A stretch of DNA of 46,345 nucleotides from a phage, in the sequence record LC918680.1. One strand, written 5' to 3'. Positions 15,334 through 39,048 of this stretch are shown here, piece after piece. How positions within the stretch are numbered: the first letter of the stretch is position 1; each line of letters opens with the position of its first letter. The translations under genes were made by a program, and so were the position numbers. Below the pieces are notes generated by a model. It saw only the letters and a list, made by a program, of their open reading frames with translations, was not told the origin of the DNA and ran no database searches.

Positions 15334-18300
15334 ATGGCACAAATGGTCAAAACAAATGCGGAGCTATGTGATATGGCGGAAGAAATTAAGATTTATGGAA
15401 GTAAGGGCGGACAGCCAAAGCAGCACCAACCTGTAGAGCAGCCTGATAACCTGATATCCGTAAACAAGGTTAAGGTTTTGCTAGCTGTTTCTGATGGTGA
15501 GGTTGATAGCTCATTCTCCCTAAAGGACCTTTACCTTGCTGACGTTCCTGTACAGAACCAGAATGGCACATACAACTACGAGGGTGTAACGGCAGAGTTT
15601 CGCCCTGGCACACAGAGTCAGGATTACATTGCCGGGCTAGAGGGTGCTAGCTCGGAAGTGCAAGTGAACAGGGAGATTAAAAACTCAACTCCTTACATCA
15701 TTGCTGTTAATAACACCCAGCTATCAGCGATTAGGGTTAAGCTGTTTTGGCCTCGTCTGATTAATCAGGAAAGTAACGGAGATCTTAACGGTACCACTTG
15801 CGAGTATGCGATTGACCTGTCCGTTGATGGCGCTACATACACTGAGTACACGCGCGGAGTAGTTAATGGCAAGACAACTAGCGGGTACGACAGAAGTATC
15901 AGGGTTAACCTTCCTGCTGAGTTCTCGAGTGCGTTGGTGAGGGTTCGTAAGATCACGGCAGATTCAGAAAGTTCGACGCTGGTTAACGACATGCAAATTA
16001 CGACCTATCAGGAAGTAATTGATGCTAAATTCCGCTACCCACTTACAGCTCTGGTTTACGTTGAGTTCAGTTCTGACCTCTTCCCTAACGGAATCCCGAC
16101 GATTTCAATCAAGAAGAAGTGGAAGTTGATTCGCGTTCCAACTAACTACAACCCAGAGACAAGGACTTACAGCGGAACCTGGAACGGCACCTTTAAGATG
16201 GCGTATTCCAATAACCCGGCGTGGGTTCTTTACGACTTGGTGACGAATCAGCGTTACGGACTTGACCAGCGAGAGCTTGGCATTACTATTGATAAGTGGG
16301 GTCTGTATGAGGCGGCGCAATTCTGTGACCAGATGGTTCCAGATGGTAAGGGTGGAGTTGAGCCGCGCTACCTGTGTGATGTTGTCATTCAGCAGAAAGT
16401 TGAAGCATATCAGGTAATCCGTGATATTTGCTCTATCTTCCGTGGGCTGACATTCTATGACGGCGAGCAGATAGGGATTGTTGTCGATAAGCCGCGTCAA
16501 CCATCGTACGTATTCACCAATGACAACGTTGTTGATGGATTGTTCAACCGTACATTTGGTAGCGATAAGTCACTTTACACGGTTGCCAACGTTCAGTTTG
16601 ATGACGTTGAAAACTCATACCAACAGGATGTTGAGCCAGTATTCGAGTTAGAGGCAACAAGGCGTTTTGGTTACAACCCGGTCGACCTTACAGCTATTGG
16701 ATGTACTCGCAGGAGTGAGGCAAACCGCCGCGGGCGCTGGTTATTAAAGACGAACATTCGCAGCGAGACTATTAGTTTCACTACTGGTCTGGAAGGTATG
16801 ATTCCAATGATTGGTGAGGTTATTGCAGTTAATGACCAGGCATGGTCTAGCAACTACACCCTTAACCTTTCTGGTCGTATCGAGTCAGTAAGTGGGTTGC
16901 AAGTTTTTGTGCCATTTAAGATTGATGCTACTGCTGGCGACAGGATTCTAATAAACAAGCCTGATGGAATGCCAGAGTACAGGACCATTGCATCTGTATC
17001 TGAAGATGGTATGACGCTTCAACTTAATACAGCGTTTAGCTTTACTCCTCAGCCTGACACAGTATTTGCGATTGATAAGGAAAATCTTGCTCTTCAGCAA
17101 TATGTTGTGACCGGTATTCAAAAAGCAGACAGCGATGGAGATGATGCGTTTGGTTACACGATTACCGCAGTTGAGTACGACCCGAACAAATACGACGAGA
17201 TTGATTACGGCGTAAACATTCAGGACAGGCCAACTTCAATCGTGGAGCCAGATACATTACTGGCACCCGAGAATGTTCAGGTTAGCAGTTACAGTAAGGT
17301 TGTTCAGGGTTTATCAGTTGAGACAATGGTAATCACGTGGGACAAGGTTCAGTACGCGAAAACCTACACGGTCCAGTGGCGCAAGGAGAACGGAAACTGG
17401 ATTAACGTGCCGCGCACAGCAAGCACAGAGGTTGATATTGAAGGTATCTATGCCGGAATTTACCAGGTTCGCGTAAGGGCCGTTTCTGATACTGAAAACG
17501 TATCCGCATGGTCTGACATTGTTTCAGTAAGCCTCACAGGCAAGATTGGGACCCCTTCTTCACCTACAGTAATCACCGCTTCAGATGATGAAATATTCGG
17601 CATTAGGGTTAAGTGGGGATTTCCTGAAAACTCAGCCGATACGTCATACACTGAATTGCAGCAAGTAGCCGACAATGGTGATGGTACTTATACACCAGAG
17701 AATGCTAGCCTTCTGACTCTGGTGCCTTACCCGAGTTACGAGTACTGGCATACTACACTTCCTGCTGGAAAGGTCATCTGGTACAGGGCGCGACTGATTG
17801 ACAAGATTGGTAACGTCTCACCATGGACTGATTTTGTAAGGGGTATGGCAAGCGATGATGTGTCGTCAATCATTGGTGATATTAAGGTTGATATAGAAAA
17901 CTCAGATGGGTTCAAGTATCTCCAGCAGAATGCCATTGAGTCAAACGGAGCTATTCAGGCGCAAGCGGAATCAATAATTGAGAACGCCCTGGCTAATGAT
18001 GGTGACGTGCGTAGAATGACGAAGGAAAACGGCAAGAGGAAGGCCGAATTTGTTCAGGCTGTGAATCTTATCGCCGATGAAGAAAGGGCTCGCGTAGAGG
18101 CTCTGACGCAGCTTAAGGCGCAGATTGATGATGAGATTGTAGCTTCATTGACAAGGATTGATACGGCGCTAGCGGAAGAGACGCAAGCAAGGACCACTGC
18201 GGACACTGCTTTATCTGCAAGGCTAGGTGATAATGAGGCTGCGTTAAATGAGAAGCTGGACACTTACGTTACTGCCGATTCAATTGGTGCTCAGTACGGG

Positions 18301-18729
18301 ATTAAACTTGGCCTCAAATACAATGGCGTTGAGTACAGTTCTGGCATGAGTATGGAGCTAACTGGTTCTGATGGCAATGTTCGTAGTCAGGTCATCTTTG
18401 ATGCTAACAGGTTCGCAATCAGTAACGGTGTTAGTTCAGGTTCCGGTCAGTGGTCATTGCCTTTCGTAGTTGAGAATAACCAGGTATTCATCCAAAGCGC
18501 GGTAATTCAGGATGGTTCAATTACTAACGCGAAGATTGGTAACTCGATTCAGTCAAACAACTACGTTGCTAACTCGCAGGGCTGGAGTTTAAACAAAGCT
18601 GGGACATTCGAGAATAACGGCTCAACTGCTGGCGAAGGTAAGATGAAGCAGACGAACCAAACAATTTCGGTTGCGGATGCTAATGGAAGGCTTCGTGTTC
18701 AGATTGGTCGTTTAACTGGCACATACTAA
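15334..18729 (+). CDS. tail tip/central fibre host-specificity protein (lambda J-like)
   Basis: 1131-aa ORF at end of tail module, larger than any other non-tape-measure ORF. Confidence 0.85.
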   Translation: MAQMVKTNAELCDMAEEIKIYGSKGGQPKQHQPVEQPDNLISVNKVKVLLAVSDGEVDSSFSLKDLYLADVPVQNQNGTYNYEGVTAEFRPGTQSQDYIAGLEGASSEVQVNREIKNSTPYIIAVNNTQLSAIRVKLFWPRLINQESNGDLNGTTCEYAIDLSVDGATYTEYTRGVVNGKTTSGYDRSIRVNLPAEFSSALVRVRKITADSESSTLVNDMQITTYQEVIDAKFRYPLTALVYVEFSSDLFPNGIPTISIKKKWKLIRVPTNYNPETRTYSGTWNGTFKMAYSNNPAWVLYDLVTNQRYGLDQRELGITIDKWGLYEAAQFCDQMVPDGKGGVEPRYLCDVVIQQKVEAYQVIRDICSIFRGLTFYDGEQIGIVVDKPRQPSYVFTNDNVVDGLFNRTFGSDKSLYTVANVQFDDVENSYQQDVEPVFELEATRRFGYNPVDLTAIGCTRRSEANRRGRWLLKTNIRSETISFTTGLEGMIPMIGEVIAVNDQAWSSNYTLNLSGRIESVSGLQVFVPFKIDATAGDRILINKPDGMPEYRTIASVSEDGMTLQLNTAFSFTPQPDTVFAIDKENLALQQYVVTGIQKADSDGDDAFGYTITAVEYDPNKYDEIDYGVNIQDRPTSIVEPDTLLAPENVQVSSYSKVVQGLSVETMVITWDKVQYAKTYTVQWRKENGNWINVPRTASTEVDIEGIYAGIYQVRVRAVSDTENVSAWSDIVSVSLTGKIGTPSSPTVITASDDEIFGIRVKWGFPENSADTSYTELQQVADNGDGTYTPENASLLTLVPYPSYEYWHTTLPAGKVIWYRARLIDKIGNVSPWTDFVRGMASDDVSSIIGDIKVDIENSDGFKYLQQNAIESNGAIQAQAESIIENALANDGDVRRMTKENGKRKAEFVQAVNLIADEERARVEALTQLKAQIDDEIVASLTRIDTALAEETQARTTADTALSARLGDNEAALNEKLDTYVTADSIGAQYGIKLGLKYNGVEYSSGMSMELTGSDGNVRSQVIFDANRFAISNGVSSGSGQWSLPFVVENNQVFIQSAVIQDGSITNAKIGNSIQSNNYVANSQGWSLNKAGTFENNGSTAGEGKMKQTNQTISVADANGRLRVQIGRLTGTY

Positions 18730-18739
18730 CTGATAAAAT

Positions 18740-18776: not shown

Positions 18777-19091
18777 ATGGCTGAGTATGGAATTGCAACA
18801 TATGACGCGAACGGTAATTACAATAACTACGGGATTAGACCTGTAACAGTTGTTGGTAATATCTCGCTTGCTAATGGACAGACATCTGGTAGCTACAGCT
18901 TTACGATACCAGCAGGTACTAAGGTTAATTTCGTCGTCGCGACTCAATCTGACTCGCTAATTAGCTACACCAATAAGCGTTTAATATCCGCATCTGGAAA
19001 TACGATAAATATATCTGCAACAACAGGATATGGTAACGGCGTTACATCCACTGGTGCTTCTAATGTTATTGTCTTTCTGGAGAATGCGTAA
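18777..19091 (+). CDS. hypothetical Ser/Thr/Asn/Gly-rich protein (putative fibre-associated)
   Basis: 104-aa ORF immediately after J-like gene; composition resembles the next ORF. Confidence 0.45.
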   Translation: MAEYGIATYDANGNYNNYGIRPVTVVGNISLANGQTSGSYSFTIPAGTKVNFVVATQSDSLISYTNKRLISASGNTINISATTGYGNGVTSTGASNVIVFLENA

Positions 19092-19759
19092 TGAGTTATG
19101 GAGCGTACATAAATGTAAATGGTAACCCGTTCATAACCCAGAACTCAACGCCGATGGCGCTTTATAGAAAAGTTACAATTAACTCAACGAAATCAAATAA
19201 TTTCAACTCAGCTAGCGCCTCAGTAAACATACCAGGAGGAACGTCACTGATAGGTTTTGGGAGGACCAGTGGGTATGCAGCAATAAGTAGCTCAATATCT
19301 GGGAGTACAGTTTCGGTAAGCGCTAGCAACTACAAAGTTACAAATTTCACTCTTGAAGCTTATTTCTTTGCTATATTCCCACAAGAACTACCAGCGTGGG
19401 GTATGGCAATATGGGATGATTCAGGTAAGTTAATACTAACAAATGAAACAAAAGTAATGACTGACTTGATAACGATTGGTACGCCAGGAGCTTCTAGTGG
19501 AGGTGTGTTTATAGATACAACAATACAAGGTAGGAAGCTTGCTGTTTGCCCTGGGGTACTTGGTGCGGTTTTGCTTGCAGGCCCTCCTCAGCAGGGGCAG
19601 CCCACAATTCAGCCAGTCACGGCATACACTGCATGTCATGACCAAGATGGAGGAACAAGGTTTAGGTCAGCAACTTCAAGTAGCGCATCCGGCGGTAGCC
19701 TTGGAGCTTCAAACCTTGGAACAATAATGACCGCCATTGACGTTTCAATATATGACTAA
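19091..19759 (+). CDS. hypothetical Ser/Thr/Gly-rich protein (putative fibre-associated)
   Basis: 222-aa ORF start-overlapping upstream stop (TAATG); followed by strong terminator. Confidence 0.45.
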   Translation: MSYGAYINVNGNPFITQNSTPMALYRKVTINSTKSNNFNSASASVNIPGGTSLIGFGRTSGYAAISSSISGSTVSVSASNYKVTNFTLEAYFFAIFPQELPAWGMAIWDDSGKLILTNETKVMTDLITIGTPGASSGGVFIDTTIQGRKLAVCPGVLGAVLLAGPPQQGQPTIQPVTAYTACHDQDGGTRFRSATSSSASGGSLGASNLGTIMTAIDVSIYD

Positions 19760-19782
19760 GCCCCTTTCGGGGCTTTTTTATT
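19759..19782 (+). terminator. intrinsic terminator at end of + strand structural block
   Basis: AGCCCC-TTTC-GGGGCT + TTTTTT. Confidence 0.8.
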
Positions 19783-20002
19783 AACCACCACAGTCGTGAT
19801 CTTTAAAGTTAGACTCCGAAACGTAGTGGAAAGAGAATGGGTATCCAGCACGTAACAGTAGTTCGTCACCTCTTTGCTGAGTACCAAAAACATAAACCGA
19901 GTACTCTGACCCAGCAGATTCATAAATTGCGGTACAAGTGCGCTCAGGCATTGAAGAGCATCCAGTCAGTAATAACGCTGCGCAGATAATAAACTTTTTC
20001 AT
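19781..20002 (-). CDS. small lipoprotein, Cor-like superinfection-exclusion candidate
   Basis: MKKFIICAALLLTGC signal peptide with lipobox; 73 aa; convergent with tail module. Confidence 0.55.
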   Translation of the reverse strand: MKKFIICAALLLTGCSSMPERTCTAIYESAGSEYSVYVFGTQQRGDELLLRAGYPFSFHYVSESNFKDHDCGG

Positions 20003-21589: not shown

Positions 21590-21784
21590 ATGCCACACTT
21601 CATAATTAAAGAGAAAAACAACGCACTGTTCGGCGATTGCTACTTTGGTGGCCCAGCCGGATACACTACCAACAAATCTGAAGCCGACCAATTCGAGACA
21701 AAGGAAGAGGCCAAGGAGTTGCTGACAGGATACTTCACTGAAGAAGATTTGAAAGCTATTAAGATTGTTAAAATTAAGGATTGA
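21590..21784 (+). CDS. hypothetical protein
   Basis: 64-aa ORF, closely spaced with neighbours. Confidence 0.5.
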   Translation: MPHFIIKEKNNALFGDCYFGGPAGYTTNKSEADQFETKEEAKELLTGYFTEEDLKAIKIVKIKD

Positions 21785-21787
21785 ACC

Positions 21788-22759
21788 ATGACATTTAAAG
21801 TTTATACGAACGACGAGCTAACAAATGAATCCTATCACGAAGAGCAAGACCATATCTCTGGCTCTTCACTGGCTGAGATTCTTGCTACCTCACCAGCTAA
21901 ATGGAAGTTTAAGCAGCGCAATAACTCTAGCGCAGCACTTAAGTTTGGCACACTAAGTCACTGCATGATGCTAGAGCGCGAGGTGTTTGACTCAACATAC
22001 ATGCGAGCTACTGACTTTGACGAAGTGGAAGGATTGATTACTAGCCAAACGGCTTTATCCGCAGCGCTTAAAAAAGTTGGAGTTTCAGGCACGTCAGGGA
22101 AGGGTTATAACGAGCTTGTAGAGATGATGTATAAGTGTGGTGAGGATTGGCCTGTTAAATGGTTAATTGAGCAGCAGGAGAGCGCTCATGCGCTAATTAG
22201 TGGCAAAGAGCTCGTTACTGCGAAAGATTACGATAAAGTAATTCAAATGCGAGAGGTTCTAACTAATATTCCGGCATATGATTCGGTCATTAATTCACCA
22301 TCAGCGCAGAAAGAACTATCAATATTTGGTGAGATTCTCGGTTGTGGTGTTAAGGTTCGTCTTGACCATGTGGATGTTGTTGATGGTATTGTCTACATTA
22401 CTGACTACAAAACCACAGCAGATGCAAGTCCTAGAGGATTTGGGAAGTCAGCTTATGACCATGGATACCTGTGCAAGATGGCACTTCAGCGAGATCTGTT
22501 TGTGAAAGCCTTTAATGAGAAACGCAAGGTTGTAGTTCGCCTTTTGGCACAGGAGAAAGCAGAGCCTTACTTACCTATGTGCTACACGCTTACGGATGAG
22601 CAGCTTCGCATTGGGCGCTTACAATATTTAGAGGCTCTGGCTGTTTACAAGCAGTGCAAGGAACTTGATGTGTGGCCTGGGTATAGCAATGGGATTACAG
22701 AGCAAGATTTGATGATTCCTGAGTGGGTAAGTAAGCAGTATCAAGAACTTCTAAAATAG
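21788..22759 (+). CDS. PD-(D/E)xK family exonuclease (recombination exonuclease)
   Basis: VRLDHVDVVDGIVYITDYKT gives D...D-x-K nuclease motif; adjacent to Erf-like and SSB genes. Confidence 0.7.
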   Translation: MTFKVYTNDELTNESYHEEQDHISGSSLAEILATSPAKWKFKQRNNSSAALKFGTLSHCMMLEREVFDSTYMRATDFDEVEGLITSQTALSAALKKVGVSGTSGKGYNELVEMMYKCGEDWPVKWLIEQQESAHALISGKELVTAKDYDKVIQMREVLTNIPAYDSVINSPSAQKELSIFGEILGCGVKVRLDHVDVVDGIVYITDYKTTADASPRGFGKSAYDHGYLCKMALQRDLFVKAFNEKRKVVVRLLAQEKAEPYLPMCYTLTDEQLRIGRLQYLEALAVYKQCKELDVWPGYSNGITEQDLMIPEWVSKQYQELLK

Positions 22760-22771: not shown

Positions 22772-22829
22772 AAGACAAAATTAACAGGTGGGGTATCATT
22801 ACCCCATCGAAACGAAAGAGAGATGGGGA

Positions 22830-23480
22830 ATGAAAACTTCTGAGCAAAACAAGCAAGTATTGAAGGCGTTATTCGAGGCTAAATCAAAGTTTGCTAAGGC
22901 TGAAAAGTCTAAGCAGAACTCACACCTCAAGAATAAGTACGCTACTTTAGATGATGTTTTAGCAGCTGTAGAGCCAGGCTTGGCTGATAGCGGACTGGTG
23001 ATGTTTCAGTCGATGATTGATGATGATGTAAGCACTCGTATTAAGGTTGAAACAACCATTTATCACGCAGAGTCTGGGGAGTGGGTTAGCTTCCTGACAA
23101 TCGTCCCAATCAGTAAGCAAGATGCTCAAGGTTATGGGTCATCACTTACATACGCTCGCCGTTACGCAATCACAGCGGCGTTAGGTTTAAGCCAGGCAGA
23201 TGATGATGGTCAGCTTGCAGTTAAGGGTATCAACTCATTTAAGAAAGATTTAGCTAAGTGCAACACTCTTGATGACCTGCGCGATGTATACAAAGAAGCT
23301 AAGCAGTCTCTTGATTCAGCTGGTTGGCTGGTGATTGAACCTCACATTATTGAGCGTAAGGCAGAGATTCAGGCTAATGCAACTAACGGCTTCAATCCTG
23401 CAAAACCTAAACAGGTTGCACAAAAGTCTGTTCAAGAAGAAAAAGTTGAAGTACAATCTCAAGAAATCGACACATTCTAA
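22830..23480 (+). CDS. Erf-like single-strand annealing protein
   Basis: ATG 22830 after conserved leader (track start 22788 lies inside the upstream hairpin); sits between exonuclease and SSB; family call from overall resemblance only. Confidence 0.55.
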   Translation: MKTSEQNKQVLKALFEAKSKFAKAEKSKQNSHLKNKYATLDDVLAAVEPGLADSGLVMFQSMIDDDVSTRIKVETTIYHAESGEWVSFLTIVPISKQDAQGYGSSLTYARRYAITAALGLSQADDDGQLAVKGINSFKKDLAKCNTLDDLRDVYKEAKQSLDSAGWLVIEPHIIERKAEIQANATNGFNPAKPKQVAQKSVQEEKVEVQSQEIDTF

Positions 23481-23520: not shown

Positions 23521-23952
23521 ATGAGTCATGTAATCACTGGCGTTATCCGTCGCGCTCCGTTCACTAAAGAAGGTCAGAATGCAAATGGCAGTTGGAAGAT
23601 GTACGCGGTTGATTTAAGTGAGCGTTACAAGGATAAAGATGGTCAATCTCAGTATAGCAACTATCGTGCCGTCTTCTTCGCAAAGGAATCAATGCTTACA
23701 TGGTATAACGAAGCGTTTCAGGAAGGGAAGATTGTTAGCGTAAGTTGTGAGACGTTAGCATTAGATGTTCGAGATAAAGATGGCAAGACTTACATAACAA
23801 TTAACATGAATAATCCTCGTCTTGAGTTTAGTCAGCGTGGTGAGGGTGTACAGCAACATAAAAATACAGAGCAACAACAGCGCCATCAACCGCAACAGCA
23901 ACAGCAACAACCACAACAGCAAAACACATTCGACGGAGATATTCCATTCTGA
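23521..23952 (+). CDS. ssb: single-stranded DNA-binding protein
   Basis: OB-fold-like N-region, Gln/Pro-rich linker, acidic tail ending DGDIPF. Confidence 0.8.
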   Translation: MSHVITGVIRRAPFTKEGQNANGSWKMYAVDLSERYKDKDGQSQYSNYRAVFFAKESMLTWYNEAFQEGKIVSVSCETLALDVRDKDGKTYITINMNNPRLEFSQRGEGVQQHKNTEQQQRHQPQQQQQQPQQQNTFDGDIPF

Positions 23953-23960
23953 TAAAAGAT

Positions 23961-23984
23961 AAAGCCCCTTTCGGGGCTTTTTTA
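23961..23984. terminator. bidirectional intrinsic terminator between convergent ssb and tail-fibre genes
   Basis: A-run + GCCCC-TTTC-GGGGC + T-run. Confidence 0.8.
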
Positions 23985-26516
23985 TGCAAGAGAAACTCTT
24001 GAGTTTGCAAATATCAAGGCGTCCCTTTGATTATCAAATTCTACAACAAAATAATCAGCAAGGCTTAATACCATACCAGTTAATCCATTGAGGTTAATGT
24101 TAAGGTTTGCAACGCCAGAAACCGAAGCCTGACCAACTCCAAATGTATGAACCCACTTACCACGCTCAGTAAACACACTGCCTAATGATGCGCTACCAAA
24201 AATGTTTATAATACCATCAGCACCGCCTTGAATCCTGTTTGCAGAAATACCCCAAACATACCATTTTCCGGAAGTTATATTAAAGCGACCATTTATCAAT
24301 TCGTACTGAGCCGCACCATCTAATTCGTAGTATCCAGATGATTGCGAGTGTATACCCCTTGTATCAGAACCTTCCCTTGACGACCCTGTTCCACCAAAGT
24401 CGTTTCCACCAGTACCAAAAGGCCTCCTGACTAAAACAATTCCGGAATCGGGGTTAAAAACTCGACCTTTAGTAACATATCCTCTAACAGATAGGTTTGA
24501 AGTGCCAGTTATCTTGGCTGTCTGTGATACCAGCGACTCAACTATAACGTTTGATGTTGAAGATCCATTCAGGTATGCATCCTTAGCAAAAATAATACTG
24601 TTCGAATCAAGAGAGAAACTTTGGTGCCCATCAGCGTTATCAAACCTGCACCCATAAGTTACAAGGTTTGAATTTGATAACTCAATGTTATTAATATAAG
24701 AATGCTCAGCAAAGAAAACGGACGTATCGATGAGCTTCAAAACCCTTGGGAGTTCAGCTCCCTCACCTACGTTAATTGCTCCCCCAGTTGCTATCGCTTC
24801 AAACCATACGTTAGACAATCCGCAAGGTGATGTTGGGCAATCTCCAGGTTTATTCTTTAACCTTATACCGCCGCCAGCAGAGGCCTCCATTATTGAATCC
24901 CTAATCCACCACCCACCAATTCCTCCAGCAACAGGGTTCGTTGCGCTACTTGTGCTTGTCGCATCTAGCATTACTGAATATTGAGAGATTGTATCTGAGT
25001 GGTATCCGTATAAAGTGTCCGCTCCTATATGCATTTCGTCATGAGCTTTGGCTCGATACCCGTAATTCGCATTTCTAATACTTACGTTTCTGTAGGTATT
25101 TCCAATGTTGCCAGCATTTTTCCTTATACCAACATCCAGGTTATTGAAGTAAAGCCTATCCAATACAACCCTTCCAGCATAAGGGTCATCCGGGAATTGA
25201 AAGCCGTTATTACCTTGTATTGCAGTACCTGTAAACTGCAAATCCGATAAATGCTTTTGCCTCCAGTGCGGAACCGATAGCGTTGAGGTGAGTCCGGTTT
25301 CAAAAGGTTTAACACTTATTACGGTATTATATCCAGAGCCTGATATGTTCCTGCCAGCAAAGGAGTAGTTATTACTCTCATAAGTTCCCGGGCTTATAAC
25401 TACCGACCCGCCATCGCCAGCGGCTTCTATTGCTGAAGATATTGAGCCGCTATAGCTTGATGTGCTTTTTGAATCTGTATTTAAAATTGATGACACCTCA
25501 CCCTTTGAGTAAACATCAAGGTTGGTTCTTGCCACGGACTTATCTGCAATGTCTGAAAGATTCAATGATTTTTGAAACGTCTCGGATTTTGAGTAAACAT
25601 CAAGCAACCCCCTAACCCTTGACGCGCTTGATCCACCAGTTGCAGCATTACCGCCAGGCAAGCTTAGTACTTCCCTTACATAAAAAACCCTAGATCCAGT
25701 CTCACCAGAAATTGTGACATCTGCAATCCTAAAATTTGAGTCTGACCCAGTAGACGGAGATAACCTTAATACATTAGCCGAATTAACACCCCTAGATGCA
25801 ATAACATCAATACAAATAGGAGTTGTTGAAACCGGAAACATTGAACTAATTTCTTTTGGGGTGTTTAACATATTCCTAAGTGTGCACTGATAACGACCTC
25901 CGGAATAAAATTGCATTGTTTGCCAATCTAAAGAGGTAAGTAATGGCGTTGTCGTGCTACCTATTCCGTGATTAGCAAAGTAAGCAACAGCCGCTGTATT
26001 TCCAGCTGCATTTATTGCCTCAACCGTCCTGTTATATGAATTTTGTGCGTTAGTGCTTGCACCAACTGCGGTCGCTGCACTTTCAGCAGCAGCAATCTGA
26101 CTAGCTAACGCCTCCGCAGCTCCGGTAGTTGACTGAGTTGCCAGTTGTTCAAAACGAGGCCAATCAAAAGTATCTTGACCAATAAATTGCAGTAGACTTT
26201 CAATAGAAGTCTCTTTTGACTGGTAGTAACGCAATGTTTCCGCAACATCCTGTGCCAACCCCTGAACAGTAATTCCATCATGAGCAAGAATTGCGTAACC
26301 AGTACCAGCGGGAACAGTTTCAGAACTTGGATTATAAACATTAACCTGAGTATCGCTGATGATTTCAGAGATGGTGTAAATTTTCAGAGGGCTGGTTTTG
26401 AAAATGATAGTAGCACCTACACGAATCAGTGTAAGAGGTGCTTTCCATGTAGTACCTACGCCAGTAACCTCGCCATTTGAGGCTAGTGATGCTGTTCCTA
26501 AGTCATAAATTGCCAT
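23982..26516 (-). CDS. tail fibre/tailspike protein
   Basis: 844-aa ORF, Gly/Ser/Asn/Thr-rich with repetitive beta-rich character; own promoter-like TGGTAGAAT upstream. Confidence 0.7.
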   Translation of the reverse strand: MAIYDLGTASLASNGEVTGVGTTWKAPLTLIRVGATIIFKTSPLKIYTISEIISDTQVNVYNPSSETVPAGTGYAILAHDGITVQGLAQDVAETLRYYQSKETSIESLLQFIGQDTFDWPRFEQLATQSTTGAAEALASQIAAAESAATAVGASTNAQNSYNRTVEAINAAGNTAAVAYFANHGIGSTTTPLLTSLDWQTMQFYSGGRYQCTLRNMLNTPKEISSMFPVSTTPICIDVIASRGVNSANVLRLSPSTGSDSNFRIADVTISGETGSRVFYVREVLSLPGGNAATGGSSASRVRGLLDVYSKSETFQKSLNLSDIADKSVARTNLDVYSKGEVSSILNTDSKSTSSYSGSISSAIEAAGDGGSVVISPGTYESNNYSFAGRNISGSGYNTVISVKPFETGLTSTLSVPHWRQKHLSDLQFTGTAIQGNNGFQFPDDPYAGRVVLDRLYFNNLDVGIRKNAGNIGNTYRNVSIRNANYGYRAKAHDEMHIGADTLYGYHSDTISQYSVMLDATSTSSATNPVAGGIGGWWIRDSIMEASAGGGIRLKNKPGDCPTSPCGLSNVWFEAIATGGAINVGEGAELPRVLKLIDTSVFFAEHSYINNIELSNSNLVTYGCRFDNADGHQSFSLDSNSIIFAKDAYLNGSSTSNVIVESLVSQTAKITGTSNLSVRGYVTKGRVFNPDSGIVLVRRPFGTGGNDFGGTGSSREGSDTRGIHSQSSGYYELDGAAQYELINGRFNITSGKWYVWGISANRIQGGADGIINIFGSASLGSVFTERGKWVHTFGVGQASVSGVANLNINLNGLTGMVLSLADYFVVEFDNQRDALIFANSRVSLA

Positions 26517-26538
26517 TGTAAAGTCTCCATTTGTAAAG

Positions 26539-26553: not shown

Positions 26554-26580
26554 AAATTCATTCTACCATCTTTCAGGCAA

Positions 26581-26602
26581 TAAAAAACCTCCCGAAGGAG
26601 GT
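26581..26602 (-). terminator. intrinsic terminator (- strand) after primase
   Basis: Plus-strand AAAAAA + CCTCC-CGAA-GGAGG, i.e. hairpin then U-run on - strand. Confidence 0.7.
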
Positions 26603-27525
26603 TAGTTTAGCAAGTCGTTTGCTTTGTACACTTTCTTTCGTATGCCTGTTTTAAATGACTCACCGTCATTAGGAACTACAACATCAACACCCCTATCGTC
26701 AGCAACAGCGAGTATATCGCTATCAGAATCACGGCAAGCAATTCTGAACTTCCTTGACTTGTCGCGGTGGATAACCATCTCCATATTGTAACAGGAGAAA
26801 GCAACAAACACTTCGCGCCCACCAGTAGCAAGGTGAACACGTATGCCATCAATATAATTGTCAACAACATAAGTATAACTATCATCCTGCTTAGAACCAA
26901 TAACGGAAACAGAATCACGAGTGTAATCACCAGCAAGGAACTTAACATTTGAATCCTCATCAATAAACATTACGTTACAGAACTCATCACTAAGCCCATC
27001 TTCATAAACCATCGAACAAGGGATTGCGTGAATCATTGAACCATTTTTAGCTATACCAACATCAAAACCAAACTCGTCATAAATACCCTCGTATGTCGTG
27101 AGTGGACTAGATTCAACTCGCTGAGTCCTCTCCATGACCTCAAGAACTTTCTTGTGGTCTACTTGAGCGCCCATTTTATAACGCAGCGTTCTTGATGCTT
27201 GCTTGTTAGCTTTAACTATAACCTCAATTGGTGTTAAGTTCAGCCAGTCACCAAGCAAATTTACTGAATCGGCGAAGGACAATCCAGTGCACTTCATGAC
27301 CCACCCTATACCGGAGTCACTTCCGCATTTCGAACAAATTGCCGCGCCATTTCCTTTTTCACTGCCTATTTCGTCGGTAAATCTGAATCTGTCAGTGCCA
27401 AAGCAGTATGGGCATGGTCCGTGCTTCTTACTTAGGTGTCTATCATTCCAACCAAGTTCCTTTGCATAAAATGATTTCCACAATCCGGCCATCTTAGGTA
27501 TAACTTCATTCTTATCGTAATTCAT
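26602..27525 (-). CDS. DNA primase (zinc-binding + Toprim-like)
   Basis: CPYC...CSKC zinc-ribbon near N-terminus, acidic D-rich C-terminal region. Confidence 0.7.
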   Translation of the reverse strand: MNYDKNEVIPKMAGLWKSFYAKELGWNDRHLSKKHGPCPYCFGTDRFRFTDEIGSEKGNGAAICSKCGSDSGIGWVMKCTGLSFADSVNLLGDWLNLTPIEVIVKANKQASRTLRYKMGAQVDHKKVLEVMERTQRVESSPLTTYEGIYDEFGFDVGIAKNGSMIHAIPCSMVYEDGLSDEFCNVMFIDEDSNVKFLAGDYTRDSVSVIGSKQDDSYTYVVDNYIDGIRVHLATGGREVFVAFSCYNMEMVIHRDKSRKFRIACRDSDSDILAVADDRGVDVVVPNDGESFKTGIRKKVYKANDLLN

Positions 27526-27881
27526 TTGCTTAAACCGTGATTTTCGTGAAAGTTGTATTTTCTCTCTGCTTCAATTCTTACTTTATACGCCTGCTCTGGA
27601 GTATCTAAGTTACCAAGGTGTAGCTGCTTGCCGTCAACCTTGATGTAAGCCTTAAATTTTCCGTGATTTAGCTTTGCCACTCCACAATAACCAGTTGTTG
27701 ATAAAACGCTAAGCTTGCAATTTCTTGAGTTACCTTGATTTGTTGTTACTCTTAGGTTTTCTATTCTGTTATCTAATTTGTTATGGTTTATATGATCAAT
27801 GTAGTCGCCATTTTGAAGTTCTCCATTAAACATCTCCCACACAACTCTATGTACATAAGTCCTAAAGCCATTAACAGACAC
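27522..27881 (-). CDS. HNH homing endonuclease with AP2-type DNA-binding domain
   Basis: HNH motif DHINHNKLDNRIENLRVTT followed by AP2-like GYCGV...FKAYI segment. Confidence 0.8.
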   Translation of the reverse strand: MSVNGFRTYVHRVVWEMFNGELQNGDYIDHINHNKLDNRIENLRVTTNQGNSRNCKLSVLSTTGYCGVAKLNHGKFKAYIKVDGKQLHLGNLDTPEQAYKVRIEAERKYNFHENHGLSK

Positions 27882-37407: not shown

Positions 37408-38991
37408 TTACCCCAGCAATAGTGGATTAATGTAAATTTTATCACCAATCAGGCATGTGTAGTTTTTCTCATCAAGCATAGGAATCAAGTGGTCCTTAAT
37501 GCGAGTCATAATTCCAGCCTGAGCTTCAAAAGGTTTAACCTTGCGTGCAGCCTCATACAACGAGCGAACACCAACAACACCTTTACCATTCTTGCCCTGC
37601 TTAATCAGGATATCAACCAGCTTGTTCATCTCGGCATTGTCACCAGCATGACCAGCAGCACTAGCGGATGATAAATAAGTCTTGCTTAGTTCGTTGAAAA
37701 TCATAACCGCTTCCTGCATTGTATCCAGTTCAATCTCTCTTGACTTTTGAGGGCTGGATCCGGCTGGTGAGAACCAGTTACGAATTACGTGCAGAACAGA
37801 AGCGATGCGGATTGCTTGCTTATCAAACTTACCAAGAGCACCGCGCAACATTGTGTGAGAATACTTGCCACCATCACCAAGATGAGGCTCCATCTCTTGA
37901 CGAGCGCGGTTAAGGTAACGCATTGATGACGCGCTTACAGTAAGTTTCACTTCAACTTCATTCATAATCTCATGAACAAGACGGAAATAGTCTGCTTTCA
38001 GGCCGTCATCAATAGCCTCATAGGTTGAATCACCATTTTCATCAACAAATACACGTTCGCCAAGAAATGATTTTTCACGCACCAGAAGGAAACGCTCAGA
38101 TACACCAATACCACGCGCACCAGCATTCATAATGGCATTGATTGTTTCATCCTGAGCAATTACGGAGATGCATCCCATAGCCACAAAGCTCATGTTATTT
38201 TCTGCGTTCGCACGGGCAATTGACACATTACCTGCATCCCATGCTTTCAGCACGAGCTCGCTGTTCGTTTTCTTCGAGCCATCACCGTAAGTCATGCCTA
38301 ACAGTGAGTTGACGCTAGTAGCCTCATCAGAGATTACCGCAAAATTACCCTGGCGATTGTTGATTCGCGCAAGACCTTCCGGAGTAGTATCGGAGACAGG
38401 GAATACTATATCGCATAGCTTCTCGAGCTTCTCCTCTAAATCCTCCTTCTCCTCAAAAAGTGAAGCCATTTCAGAAGGTGATTTCTCCTGCTTCATCTCT
38501 TTAGCCAGAGCGGACAGTTTAGCCATAATCTTTTTTCGATCACGTTTACGTACTTCATTCAACCGCTCAGTCTCAGCAATCATCGGCGCAATTGATAGCG
38601 AGTTAATGGCTGATTTACCAGTTGAAGGCGGCTGACTTGTTACCACGTACAAAGATGTTGGCTGTTGGGTTCCATGATACTCGACAGTAAAACGCCCAAG
38701 CATTGCAGCAGAAACACAACCAAGAAAGTGCATGTAAACTGACGACTCAGGGAACTGAACCGAGCGAGCGATATTAGCCGATAGCTTACCAACAACATCA
38801 ATATCATTACCGAGTGAGATTACTGGATACTTATCATTACCTGTATCAATCTCGACAGGTGCTTTCCAGAACGATTGAGAATGTCGATAGCCATTGGCAT
38901 TAATAGCCACGCGAAGCGGTGGTAGGTTTTCATTGGCAGCGATTGCCATAACCTGCTCAACAGATAGTTTATCTTCGTTGAAATCAAACAT
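37408..38991 (-). CDS. P-loop NTPase (DUF3987-like), putative replication-associated ATPase
   Basis: Walker A SQPPSTGKS and Walker B-like AVISDEAT; 527 aa; boundary motif and conserved leader upstream. Confidence 0.55.
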   Translation of the reverse strand: MFDFNEDKLSVEQVMAIAANENLPPLRVAINANGYRHSQSFWKAPVEIDTGNDKYPVISLGNDIDVVGKLSANIARSVQFPESSVYMHFLGCVSAAMLGRFTVEYHGTQQPTSLYVVTSQPPSTGKSAINSLSIAPMIAETERLNEVRKRDRKKIMAKLSALAKEMKQEKSPSEMASLFEEKEDLEEKLEKLCDIVFPVSDTTPEGLARINNRQGNFAVISDEATSVNSLLGMTYGDGSKKTNSELVLKAWDAGNVSIARANAENNMSFVAMGCISVIAQDETINAIMNAGARGIGVSERFLLVREKSFLGERVFVDENGDSTYEAIDDGLKADYFRLVHEIMNEVEVKLTVSASSMRYLNRARQEMEPHLGDGGKYSHTMLRGALGKFDKQAIRIASVLHVIRNWFSPAGSSPQKSREIELDTMQEAVMIFNELSKTYLSSASAAGHAGDNAEMNKLVDILIKQGKNGKGVVGVRSLYEAARKVKPFEAQAGIMTRIKDHLIPMLDEKNYTCLIGDKIYINPLLLG

Positions 38992-39048
38992 TACTTCTCT
39001 CCGTGTTGTTATGAGCGGCCATTATATCAATAGCCGCTTATAATGCAT

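What the first reader, a model, noticed from the sequence alone, without database searches (positions are those of the whole stretch)
23982..26516. Large tail-fibre/tailspike gene displaced into the replication region on the opposite strand
The 844-aa fibre-like ORF is encoded on the - strand between ssb and primase, ~5 kb away from the tail module. It has a bidirectional terminator downstream and an extended -10-like TGGTAGAAT upstream. The central and C-terminal portion is repetitive and beta-rich, as seen in beta-helix depolymerase-type tailspikes.
Basis: partly seen in the sequence, partly recalled or inferred. Interest (0 to 1): 0.45.

Follow-up and report, generated by a model that had tools for sequence, protein, structure and literature searches.

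The report
T1-family lateral tail fibre, tailspike type
This is the ordinary side tail fibre gene of a T1-like (Drexlerviridae) E. coli phage, carrying a sugar-targeting beta-helix "tailspike" head, and its position among the replication genes is the normal layout of the family, not a displacement.

Summary
The 844-aa ORF at 23982..26516 (-) is real. It lies between ssb and primase, and both flanking hairpins and the TGGTAGAAT motif are present. The window is a Drexlerviridae (Braunvirinae) coliphage.

The position is family-typical. The fibre gene sits at the same place and orientation in T1, DTL, JeanPiccard, AN_ECEAS and PaulSarasin, and the BASEL paper describes this locus as fully syntenic. 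"Displaced" is therefore a family-wide, long-known arrangement.

The protein is modular:
- Residues 1-118/174 are the family-wide N-terminal domain, 52% identical to the T1 fibre. They match the solved Klebsiella Webervirus tailspikes DpK2 and Depo32 at E 1e-32.
- Residues 1-~310 are shared with other Braunvirinae fibres.

This C-terminal module is 44-49% identical to most related tailspikes, which carry P22-type, T7-type or CBA120-type N-termini; these include LM33_P1 and ES17.

The most likely function is a trimeric lateral tail fibre that binds, and probably cleaves, an O-antigen as primary receptor. Enzymatic activity and glycan specificity are inferred, not shown. The finding is ordinary and already known.

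In passing, the helicase gene carries a split intein with a LAGLIDADG gene.

The parts
23982..26516 (-). Lateral tail fibre / tailspike gene, 844 aa plus stop
   Evidence: ORF list. PHROG tail-fibre families phrog_24092 (res 1-373) and phrog_27367 (res 343-844). 95.4% nt identity over the full length to genes of phages AN_ECEAS (annotated 'tail fiber protein') and ES.
26163..26516 (-). Residues 1-118: family-wide N-terminal domain, inferred virion-attachment part
   Evidence: 52% identity to T1 ST26 residues 1-118, E 2e-31. Residues 1-174 match the N-termini of PDB 7LZJ (DpK2) and 7VYV/7VZ3 (Depo32), E 1e-32. tblastn finds it in 901 phage records. AF2 monomer confidence is low here.
25974..26162 (-). 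Residues ~119-181: long Ala/Ser-rich alpha-helix, probable trimeric helical neck
   Evidence: AF2 helices 119-171 and 174-181. DpK2 has an N-terminal triple helical bundle (PMC8552709). The trimer itself was not tested.
25647..25949 (-). Residues ~190-290: small beta domain shared with other Braunvirinae fibres
   Evidence: AF2 strands 208-285, block pLDDT mostly 64-88. It lies within the 79%-identical region shared with the JeanPiccard lateral tail fibre, residues 1-310.
25470..25646 (-). Residues ~291-349: flexible linker with two LDVYSK motifs; module junction and recombination breakpoint
   Evidence: Low pLDDT. 17-nt direct repeat at 25504-25520 and 25588-25604. Homology to JeanPiccard ends at RVRGLLDVYS. 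The nt identity profile drops at about 25540.
24447..25469 (-). Residues ~350-690: right-handed parallel beta-helix, putative glycan-binding/cleaving domain (boundaries approximate)
23985..24446 (-). Residues ~691-844: C-terminal beta-sandwich domain (boundary approximate)
   Evidence: Long antiparallel strands 752-827 and terminal helix 830-839. Foldseek hit to CBM22 over 166 columns, TM 0.53 normalised to the target.
23961..23980 (.). Convergent (bidirectional) intrinsic terminator hairpin between the ssb stop and the fibre stop
   Evidence: Conserved in AN_ECEAS, JeanPiccard and DTL, with a different stem sequence at the same place in T1. T1 annotates terminators on both strands there.
26586..26603 (-). 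Terminator-like hairpin plus U-run directly after the primase stop codon
   Evidence: -11.8 kcal/mol, z -2.8. Conserved, with a compensatory stem change in T1: CCGCC/GGCGG instead of CCTCC/GGAGG.
26560..26568 (-). TGGTAGAAT, extended -10-like promoter element for the fibre gene
   Evidence: Sequence. Same position in relatives as TGCTACAAT (AN_ECEAS, JeanPiccard, DTL) and TGATAAAAT (T1). Not enriched genome-wide. No good -35. Promoter activity not tested.
26525..26528 (-). GGAG ribosome-binding site, 8 nt before the ATG
   Evidence: Sequence. Conserved in the Braunvirinae relatives.

Best explanation
The ORF is the lateral (side) tail fibre of a Drexlerviridae (T1-like, Braunvirinae) coliphage, of the tailspike type. 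Its position on the opposite strand between ssb and primase is the standard locus for this gene across several subfamilies of the family.

The protein is a three-part mosaic:
1. A conserved N-terminal part (about 118 residues family-wide, about 310 residues within the subfamily). It is homologous to the N-terminus of the Webervirus tailspikes DpK2 and Depo32, and most likely forms the trimeric anchor and neck that fixes the fibre to the tail tip.
2. A flexible linker with LDVYSK motifs, where modules are exchanged by recombination.
3. A C-terminal receptor module of about 500 residues: a right-handed beta-helix plus a beta-sandwich. It belongs to a family shared horizontally with tailspikes that carry P22-type, T7-type and CBA120-type N-termini.

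Inferred mechanism:
- The fibre is made from its own extended -10 promoter, downstream of the primase terminator.
- It assembles as a trimer on the tail tip.
- It binds, and probably cleaves, a specific O-antigen (or other surface glycan) as a reversible primary receptor.
- This brings the gpJ tip and the receptor-binding proteins encoded after gpJ (a T1-like layout with cor) to the terminal outer-membrane protein receptor.

Shown here: gene, synteny, modular homology, predicted fold. Inferred: trimer, virion attachment, late expression, glycan specificity, enzymatic cleavage.
For: Identity and locus:
- ORF and neighbours.
- The window is Drexlerviridae/Braunvirinae.
- Same locus and orientation in T1, DTL, JeanPiccard ('lateral tail fiber protein'), AN_ECEAS and PaulSarasin.
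- PMC8594841 states that the locus is flanked by conserved, fully syntenic recombination and primase/helicase genes, and that only the 5' end of the fibre gene is conserved.

Modular homology:
- PHROG tail-fibre hits.
- N-terminus to DpK2/Depo32, E 1e-32. DpK2 was immunogold-localised to the distal tail appendages of a Webervirus virion and has an N-terminal helical bundle, a beta-helix and a C-terminal domain (PMC8552709).
- 752 homologues, of which only 7 are full length. The rest of the best 120 listed share mostly 37-52% of the query, at its N-terminus in the pairs checked, and about half carry Pfam-recognised C-modules (Pect-lyase, Beta_helix, Peptidase_S74).
- The C-module is mostly 44-49% identical over 86-99% of its length (weakest relatives 35-38%) to proteins with Head_binding (P22), Phage_T7_tail or Tail_spike_N N-termini, and 47-49% to the tail fibres of LM33_P1, ES17, Golestan and fFiEco03.

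Fold:
- AF2 pLDDT 91.4.

Regulatory elements:
- Conserved hairpins, TGNTANAAT and RBS.
Against: - No Pfam domain is detected in the query itself.
- Identity to any solved tailspike is only 8-16%, so catalytic residues cannot be transferred.
- Conserved acidic residues exist in the C-module alignment (D158, D198, E202, E231, E262, D284 and D295 in C-module numbering, add 342 for full-length numbering). Their spatial clustering could not be checked.
- For the closest characterised relative of the C-module (the ES17 tail fibre protein, 49% identity) the authors detected only binding to heparan sulfate, not depolymerisation (PMC7885116).
- The N-terminal 190 residues are poorly modelled as a monomer.
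- No expression or virion data exist for this phage.
Confidence: 0.88

Rival explanations
1. The fibre is a binding-only adhesin. The beta-helix module recognises a surface (or even host-mucosal) glycan but has no glycosidase, lyase or deacetylase activity.
For: - No catalytic Pfam family matches the query.
- For the ES17 tail fibre protein (49% identical C-module) only binding to heparan sulfate proteoglycans was detected (PMC7885116).
Against: - The fold is closest to enzymatically active tailspikes and pectin-lyase-fold enzymes.
- Several acidic residues and a histidine-containing motif (MHxGADT, DSIxEAS, WFEAIAT, CRFDN) are invariant or nearly invariant across 46 sequences down to 36% identity, as expected for an active site.
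Confidence: 0.25
2. The module targets a capsule (K antigen) or another exopolysaccharide rather than the O-antigen. This would make it a capsule depolymerase like the Klebsiella Webervirus tailspikes.
For: - The N-terminus is homologous to the K2 capsule depolymerases DpK2 and Depo32.
- Many structural neighbours are capsule depolymerases.
Against: - The C-module is unrelated in sequence to DpK2/Depo32.
- Its sequence relatives sit on P22-type tailspike scaffolds in E. coli, Citrobacter and Salmonella assemblies, and in phages such as LM33_P1. LM33_P1 is described in the title of Dufour et al. 2016 (cited in PMC7885116) as directed against the O25b clonal complex.
- The BASEL paper proposes O-antigen as the primary receptor for Drexlerviridae lateral fibres.
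Confidence: 0.15
3. One reading: the fibre gene was moved out of the tail module into the replication region in this genome (a lineage-specific rearrangement or inversion).
For: The gene is about 4 kb from the tail module, on the opposite strand.
Against: - Same order and orientation in T1, DTL, JeanPiccard, AN_ECEAS and PaulSarasin, covering three subfamilies.
- The flanking terminators and promoter-like motif are conserved as far as T1.
- Described as syntenic in PMC8594841.
- Any relocation would predate the divergence of these subfamilies.
Confidence: 0.02
4. The product is not a virion component but a free polysaccharide-degrading enzyme released at lysis.
For: The gene is transcriptionally separate from the structural operon.
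Against: - The N-terminal domain is homologous to that of DpK2, which was localised on the virion tail by immunogold labelling (PMC8552709).
- The N-terminal domain is conserved in 901 phage records while the C-termini vary, which is the pattern of an anchor domain.
Confidence: 0.03

Closest known systems
Lateral tail fibre of Drexlerviridae (T1 ST26; BASEL phage JeanPiccard bas02_0034; AN_ECEAS XES82184)
   Same: - Same locus, strand and flanking genes.
- Same flanking terminators and upstream TGNTANAAT motif.
- N-terminal identity: 52% over residues 1-118 to T1, and 79% over residues 1-310 to JeanPiccard.
- Full-length gene is 95.4% nt identical to AN_ECEAS and ES.
   Different: - The C-terminal 500 residues are unrelated to those of T1 and JeanPiccard.
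- Only 2 of 50,697 phage records carry this complete allele.
- The locus here holds a single gene, whereas T1 and PaulSarasin have extra small or accessory genes.
Webervirus tailspike depolymerases DpK2 (phage RAD2, PDB 7LZJ) and Depo32 (phage GH-K3, PDB 7VYV/7VZ3)
   Same: - Homologous N-terminal ~174 residues, E 1e-32.
- Same overall plan: N-terminal domain with a helical neck, a beta-helix and a C-terminal domain.
- Both come from Drexlerviridae siphoviruses.
   Different: - DpK2 and Depo32 cleave Klebsiella K2 capsule. The substrate here is unknown and more likely an E. coli O-antigen.
- In Webervirus TSK1 the gene follows ssb on the same strand.
Tail fibre/tailspike receptor modules of LM33_P1 (Kayfunavirus), ES17, Golestan/fFiEco03 (Kagunavirus), and P22-type 'head-binding domain' tailspikes found in Citrobacter and E. 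coli assemblies
   Same: - Mostly 44-49% identity over 86-99% of the C-terminal 502 residues; the weakest relatives are 35-38% identical, and two short proteins cover only 56-70%.
- Same PHROG (phrog_27367).
   Different: - Different N-terminal adaptors (Phage_T7_tail, Tail_spike_N, Head_binding).
- At about 47% identity the glycan specificity need not be the same.
Classical O-antigen tailspikes (P22, Sf6, HK620, CBA120 TSP2)
   Same: Predicted right-handed parallel beta-helix followed by a C-terminal beta domain.
   Different: - 8-14% sequence identity.
- TM-scores of only 0.25-0.47.
- Catalytic residues cannot be aligned with confidence.

Membership tests
Drexlerviridae lateral tail fibre | Gene located between the recombination/ssb genes and the primase/regulator/helicase genes, transcribed with the primase | tested here: met
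   Window gene map compared with T1, DTL, JeanPiccard, AN_ECEAS and PaulSarasin. PMC8594841 S1C legend.
Drexlerviridae lateral tail fibre | Conserved far N-terminal domain, variable remainder | tested here: met
   52% identity to T1 over residues 1-118 and nothing beyond. Of 752 homologues only 7 are full length. 901 phage records carry the N-terminal domain.
Drexlerviridae lateral tail fibre | Component of the virion, attached at the tail tip | not testable with these tools
   Only by homology to DpK2, which was immunogold-localised on RAD2 tails (PMC8552709).
Beta-helix tailspike / polysaccharide depolymerase | Right-handed parallel beta-helix (pectin-lyase fold) central domain | tested here: met
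   [not shown]
Beta-helix tailspike / polysaccharide depolymerase | Homotrimer | not tested
   Only monomer models were made. The long helix 119-171 is compatible with a trimeric neck like that of DpK2 (PMC8552709).
Beta-helix tailspike / polysaccharide depolymerase | Catalytic acidic residues in a groove; glycan cleavage | tested here: inconclusive
   Conserved Asp/Glu/His positions exist in the 46-sequence alignment. There is no Pfam catalytic family, no transferable active site at 8-16% identity, and model coordinates could not be inspected. ES17, the nearest characterised relative, showed binding only.
Endosialidase-type fibres with a C-terminal intramolecular chaperone (Peptidase_S74) | Peptidase_S74 domain at the C-terminus | tested here: not met
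   No Pfam hit in the query. Some sister alleles (for example P0011) do have it.
LM33_P1/ES17-type receptor module (phrog_27367) | Sequence homology across the whole ~500-residue C-terminal module | tested here: met
   phrog_27367, E 7e-139, residues 343-844. 47-49% identity over 94% of the module.

The most novel reading that the evidence does not exclude
The C-terminal module (residues ~345-844) belongs to a tailspike family with no Pfam model and no solved structure. Its only characterised member, the ES17 tail fibre protein, was reported to bind mammalian heparan sulfate. The most novel reading not excluded is that this Drexlerviridae fibre likewise binds a host-mucosal glycan, or has a new O-antigen specificity or chemistry, rather than being a routine O-antigen hydrolase.
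Probability: 0.1. Interest if true: 0.4.

Novelty: already known. Interest (0 to 1): 0.12.

Why it matters
It matters little beyond annotation. The result corrects the impression that this gene is misplaced: a fibre gene between ssb and primase is a hallmark of T1-like phages. It also gives a domain map and a recombination junction (about residues 310-345) that could be used to swap receptor modules when engineering host range. The receptor module is a rare allele among sequenced Drexlerviridae and belongs to an uncharacterised structural family shared with phages that target ST131 strains. That could interest people designing therapeutic phages, but nothing here is unexpected.

Tried and rejected
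- Pfam on the query gave nothing meaningful: one sub-threshold GCS2 hit at E 0.087, rejected as noise.
- Tandem and direct-repeat searches found no repetitive sequence. The 'repetitive' description was rejected except as structural coils.
- The TGNTANAAT motif count is not above chance, so the motif alone was rejected as evidence. Only its positional conservation was kept.
- The full-length AF2 model did not resolve the N-terminal 190 residues (pLDDT 31-60), so no fold claim is made for them.
- A second tailspike elsewhere in the window was considered. The other large ORFs are gpJ, the tape measure protein, helicases and an exonuclease.
- The idea that the fibre is the central tail fibre was rejected. 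gpJ (15334..18729), with the Phage_Tail_Tip domain, fills that role.
- Literature searches for the AN_ECEAS host or serotype, and for LM33_P1 gp17 enzymology, returned nothing usable.
- The exhaustive representative-protein search and the third fold search were not run, because the answer did not depend on them.
Full report
**1. Observation**

The ORF is as described: 23982..26516 on the - strand, ATG start, 844 aa. Upstream on the same strand is a primase (26602..27525, Zn_Ribbon_Prim, E 2e-10). Downstream and convergent is an SSB (23521..23952, phrog_44, E 5e-27). The SSB is preceded by Erf (22788..23480) and exonuclease VIII (21788..22759).

The tail module ends with gpJ (15334..18729, Phage_Tail_Tip), two small + strand genes (18777..19759) and a Cor lipoprotein (19781..20002, -). 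The fibre gene therefore lies about 4 kb beyond the tail module.

Between the ssb stop and the fibre stop there is one GC-rich hairpin (23961-23980). It has U-runs on both strands and folds at -14.4 and -13.6 kcal/mol. A second hairpin plus U-run follows the primase stop (26586-26603, -11.8 kcal/mol). It is followed by TGGTAGAAT (26560-26568) and a GGAG 8 nt before the ATG.

The TGNTANAAT pattern is not over-represented in the window: 15 matches against 10 +/- 3 expected. No sequence repeats exist in the gene apart from a 17-nt pair encoding LDVYSK twice.

**2. What the window is, and whether the position is unusual**

The region matches Drexlerviridae coliphages. The best matches are AN_ECEAS and ES at about 90% nt identity; DTL, JeanPiccard and others are more distant.

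In AN_ECEAS, JeanPiccard (BASEL Bas02, annotated 'lateral tail fiber protein') and DTL, the gene order is exoVIII - recombinase - ssb -> <- fibre <- primase <- regulator, then helicase ->. This is the same order as in the window. Phage T1 itself has this order, and its record annotates rho-independent terminators on both strands between ST27 and the tail fibre gene ST26. PaulSarasin (Tempevirinae) has it too, with extra accessory genes. In Webervirus TSK1 the fibre follows ssb on the same strand.

The BASEL paper states that the lateral tail fibre locus of 13 Drexlerviridae is flanked by highly conserved, fully syntenic recombination and primase/helicase genes. It adds that only the 5' end of the fibre gene is conserved (PMC8594841).

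The intergenic elements are conserved as well:
- the primase terminator, with a compensatory stem change in T1;
- TGNTANAAT at the same spacing (TGCTACAAT in three relatives, TGATAAAAT in T1);
- the RBS;
- the convergent terminator.

'Displaced' is therefore a long-known feature of this phage family, not an event in this genome.

**3. Anatomy of the protein**

Sequence comparisons define nested modules:
- Residues 1-118 are 52% identical to T1 ST26, with nothing similar beyond.
- Residues 1-174 match the N-termini of the solved Webervirus tailspike depolymerases DpK2 (7LZJ) and Depo32 (7VYV/7VZ3) at E 1e-32.
- Residues 1-~310 are 79% identical to the JeanPiccard fibre. Homology stops at RVRGLLDVYS, matching a drop in nucleotide identity at about 25540.

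Of 752 database homologues, only seven are full length. The rest of the best 120 listed mostly share 37-52% of the query, at its N-terminus in the pairs checked. About half of them have other Pfam-recognised C-terminal modules: Pect-lyase_RHGA_epim, Beta_helix, PF27114 or Peptidase_S74.

The C-terminal 502 residues have their own set of relatives. Most are 44-49% identical over 86-99% of the module; the weakest are 35-38% identical, and two short proteins cover only 56-70% of it. These relatives carry Head_binding (P22-type), Phage_T7_tail or Tail_spike_N N-termini. Among cultured phages they are the tail fibres or tailspikes of LM33_P1, ES17, myPSH1131, Golestan, fFiEco03, phiEc3/4 and others. 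This is the classic pattern of horizontal exchange of receptor modules between adaptor domains.

**4. Fold**

AlphaFold2 on residues 343-844, with a 46-sequence alignment, gave pLDDT 91.4 and pTM 0.89. Foldseek against the PDB returned almost only phage tailspikes and depolymerases: K2-2 TSP, CBA120 TSP2/4, Sf6, P22, HK620, Depo32 and DpK2, with E 3e-8 to 1e-4. It also matched a CBM22-like beta-sandwich for the last ~160 residues.

The full-length model (pLDDT 74.7) adds four features:
- a poorly defined N-terminal beta region;
- a long helix at 119-181;
- a small beta domain at about 190-290;
- a disordered linker at 291-349.

This plan matches the DpK2 description: N-terminal domain with a triple helical bundle, a beta-helix and a C-terminal domain (PMC8552709).

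**5. Mechanism**

Shown here:
- the gene and its conserved locus;
- its own conserved promoter-like element and flanking terminators;
- modular homology;
- the predicted beta-helix.

Inferred from established knowledge of tailspikes and from DpK2 and the BASEL paper:
- the protein trimerises;
- the N-terminal domain anchors it at the tail tip;
- the beta-helix binds, and probably cleaves, a specific O-antigen as primary receptor;
- this lets the gpJ tip complex reach its outer-membrane receptor.

Conserved acidic and histidine positions exist across the module family, but I could not test whether they form a site. The nearest characterised relative, the ES17 fibre, was reported only to bind heparan sulfate. 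Cleavage therefore remains an inference at about 60%. The glycan specificity is unknown.

**6. Comparison and novelty**

The gene is a member of the Drexlerviridae lateral tail fibre family; the locus and N-terminal domain tests were both met. It works like a beta-helix tailspike: the fold test was met, the trimer was not tested, and catalysis is inconclusive. It lacks the Peptidase_S74 chaperone found in some sister alleles.

A 95.4% nt-identical gene is already deposited in two phages, annotated 'tail fiber protein' in one of them (AN_ECEAS). The arrangement is present in the deposited T1 genome record. I rate it already known, with low interest.

**7. Seen in passing**

The helicase gene downstream is interrupted inside its DExH motif by a split intein. 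Its two halves are separate ORFs in one frame, with a LAGLIDADG endonuclease ORF in another frame. This is the 'fractured gene' layout of PMC2677866.

The element and about 800 nt downstream are about 99-100% identical to AN_ECEAS, while the flanks are 79-94% identical. This is a homing/co-conversion signature. Only ES and AN_ECEAS share the element among 50,697 phage records.

Noticed in passing
window 28623-31757 (+): N part 28623..29432, LAGLIDADG ORF 29261..30115, C part 30048..31757: The replicative helicase gene is interrupted in its DExH motif (AIDE|CH).
- The N-terminal ORF continues from 'DE' into a Hint N-part (CLTGDTM...) and stops at 29432.
- The C-terminal ORF starts with a Hint C-part (...GVVAHN) followed by CHMVDHM... 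It is in the same frame as the N-terminal ORF, with 9 stop codons between them.
- A 284-aa LAGLIDADG endonuclease ORF with its own RBS lies in another frame and overlaps both halves.
- This looks like a naturally split intein plus a free-standing homing endonuclease (the 'fractured gene' layout of PMC2677866), or an intein broken by two frameshifts.
- JeanPiccard, DTL and T1 have an uninterrupted helicase.

   Followed up: partly
window 29073-31020 versus AN_ECEAS (L001 11613-13560): The intein/endonuclease element and about 800 nt of downstream helicase sequence are about 99-100% identical to phage AN_ECEAS, whereas the flanking sequence is 79-94% identical. This looks like a recent homing/co-conversion tract. 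Only phages ES and AN_ECEAS share the element among 50,697 phage records. Weak partial matches occur next to homing endonuclease genes of Pectobacterium phages.
   Followed up: partly
window 27522-27881 (-): A 119-aa HNH_3 endonuclease ORF (E 2e-18) is wedged between the primase and the transcriptional regulator, and its stop overlaps the primase start codon. DTL has an HNH gene at the same place; AN_ECEAS and JeanPiccard do not.
   Followed up: partly
window 18777-20002: Downstream of gpJ the window has two + strand genes (104 and 222 aa; phrog_557 'outer membrane protein' and phrog_425 'membrane associated protein') and a - strand Cor superinfection-exclusion lipoprotein. This is the T1 layout (ST32/ST31/cor). 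It differs from the two - strand genes at this site in its closest relatives AN_ECEAS, JeanPiccard and DTL, so the terminal-receptor locus is mosaic too.
   Followed up: partly
window 26602-27525 versus AN_ECEAS: The primase gene is only about 62-73% nt identical to AN_ECEAS, although the adjacent fibre gene is 95% identical and the genome average is about 90%. There is a sharp mosaic boundary at the primase/fibre intergenic region.
   Followed up: no
window 23521-23952 (+): The SSB ends in a long Gln/Pro-rich tract (QQQRHQPQQQQQQPQQQ) followed by DGDIPF. From memory, this resembles the acidic C-terminal tip of bacterial SSB proteins.
   Followed up: no
window 18731-18739, 21766-21774, 37436-37444, 39021-39029: Further TGNTANAAT matches lie in or near intergenic positions, for example directly after the gpJ stop. 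They were not examined for conservation, and the motif as a whole is not enriched.
   Followed up: no
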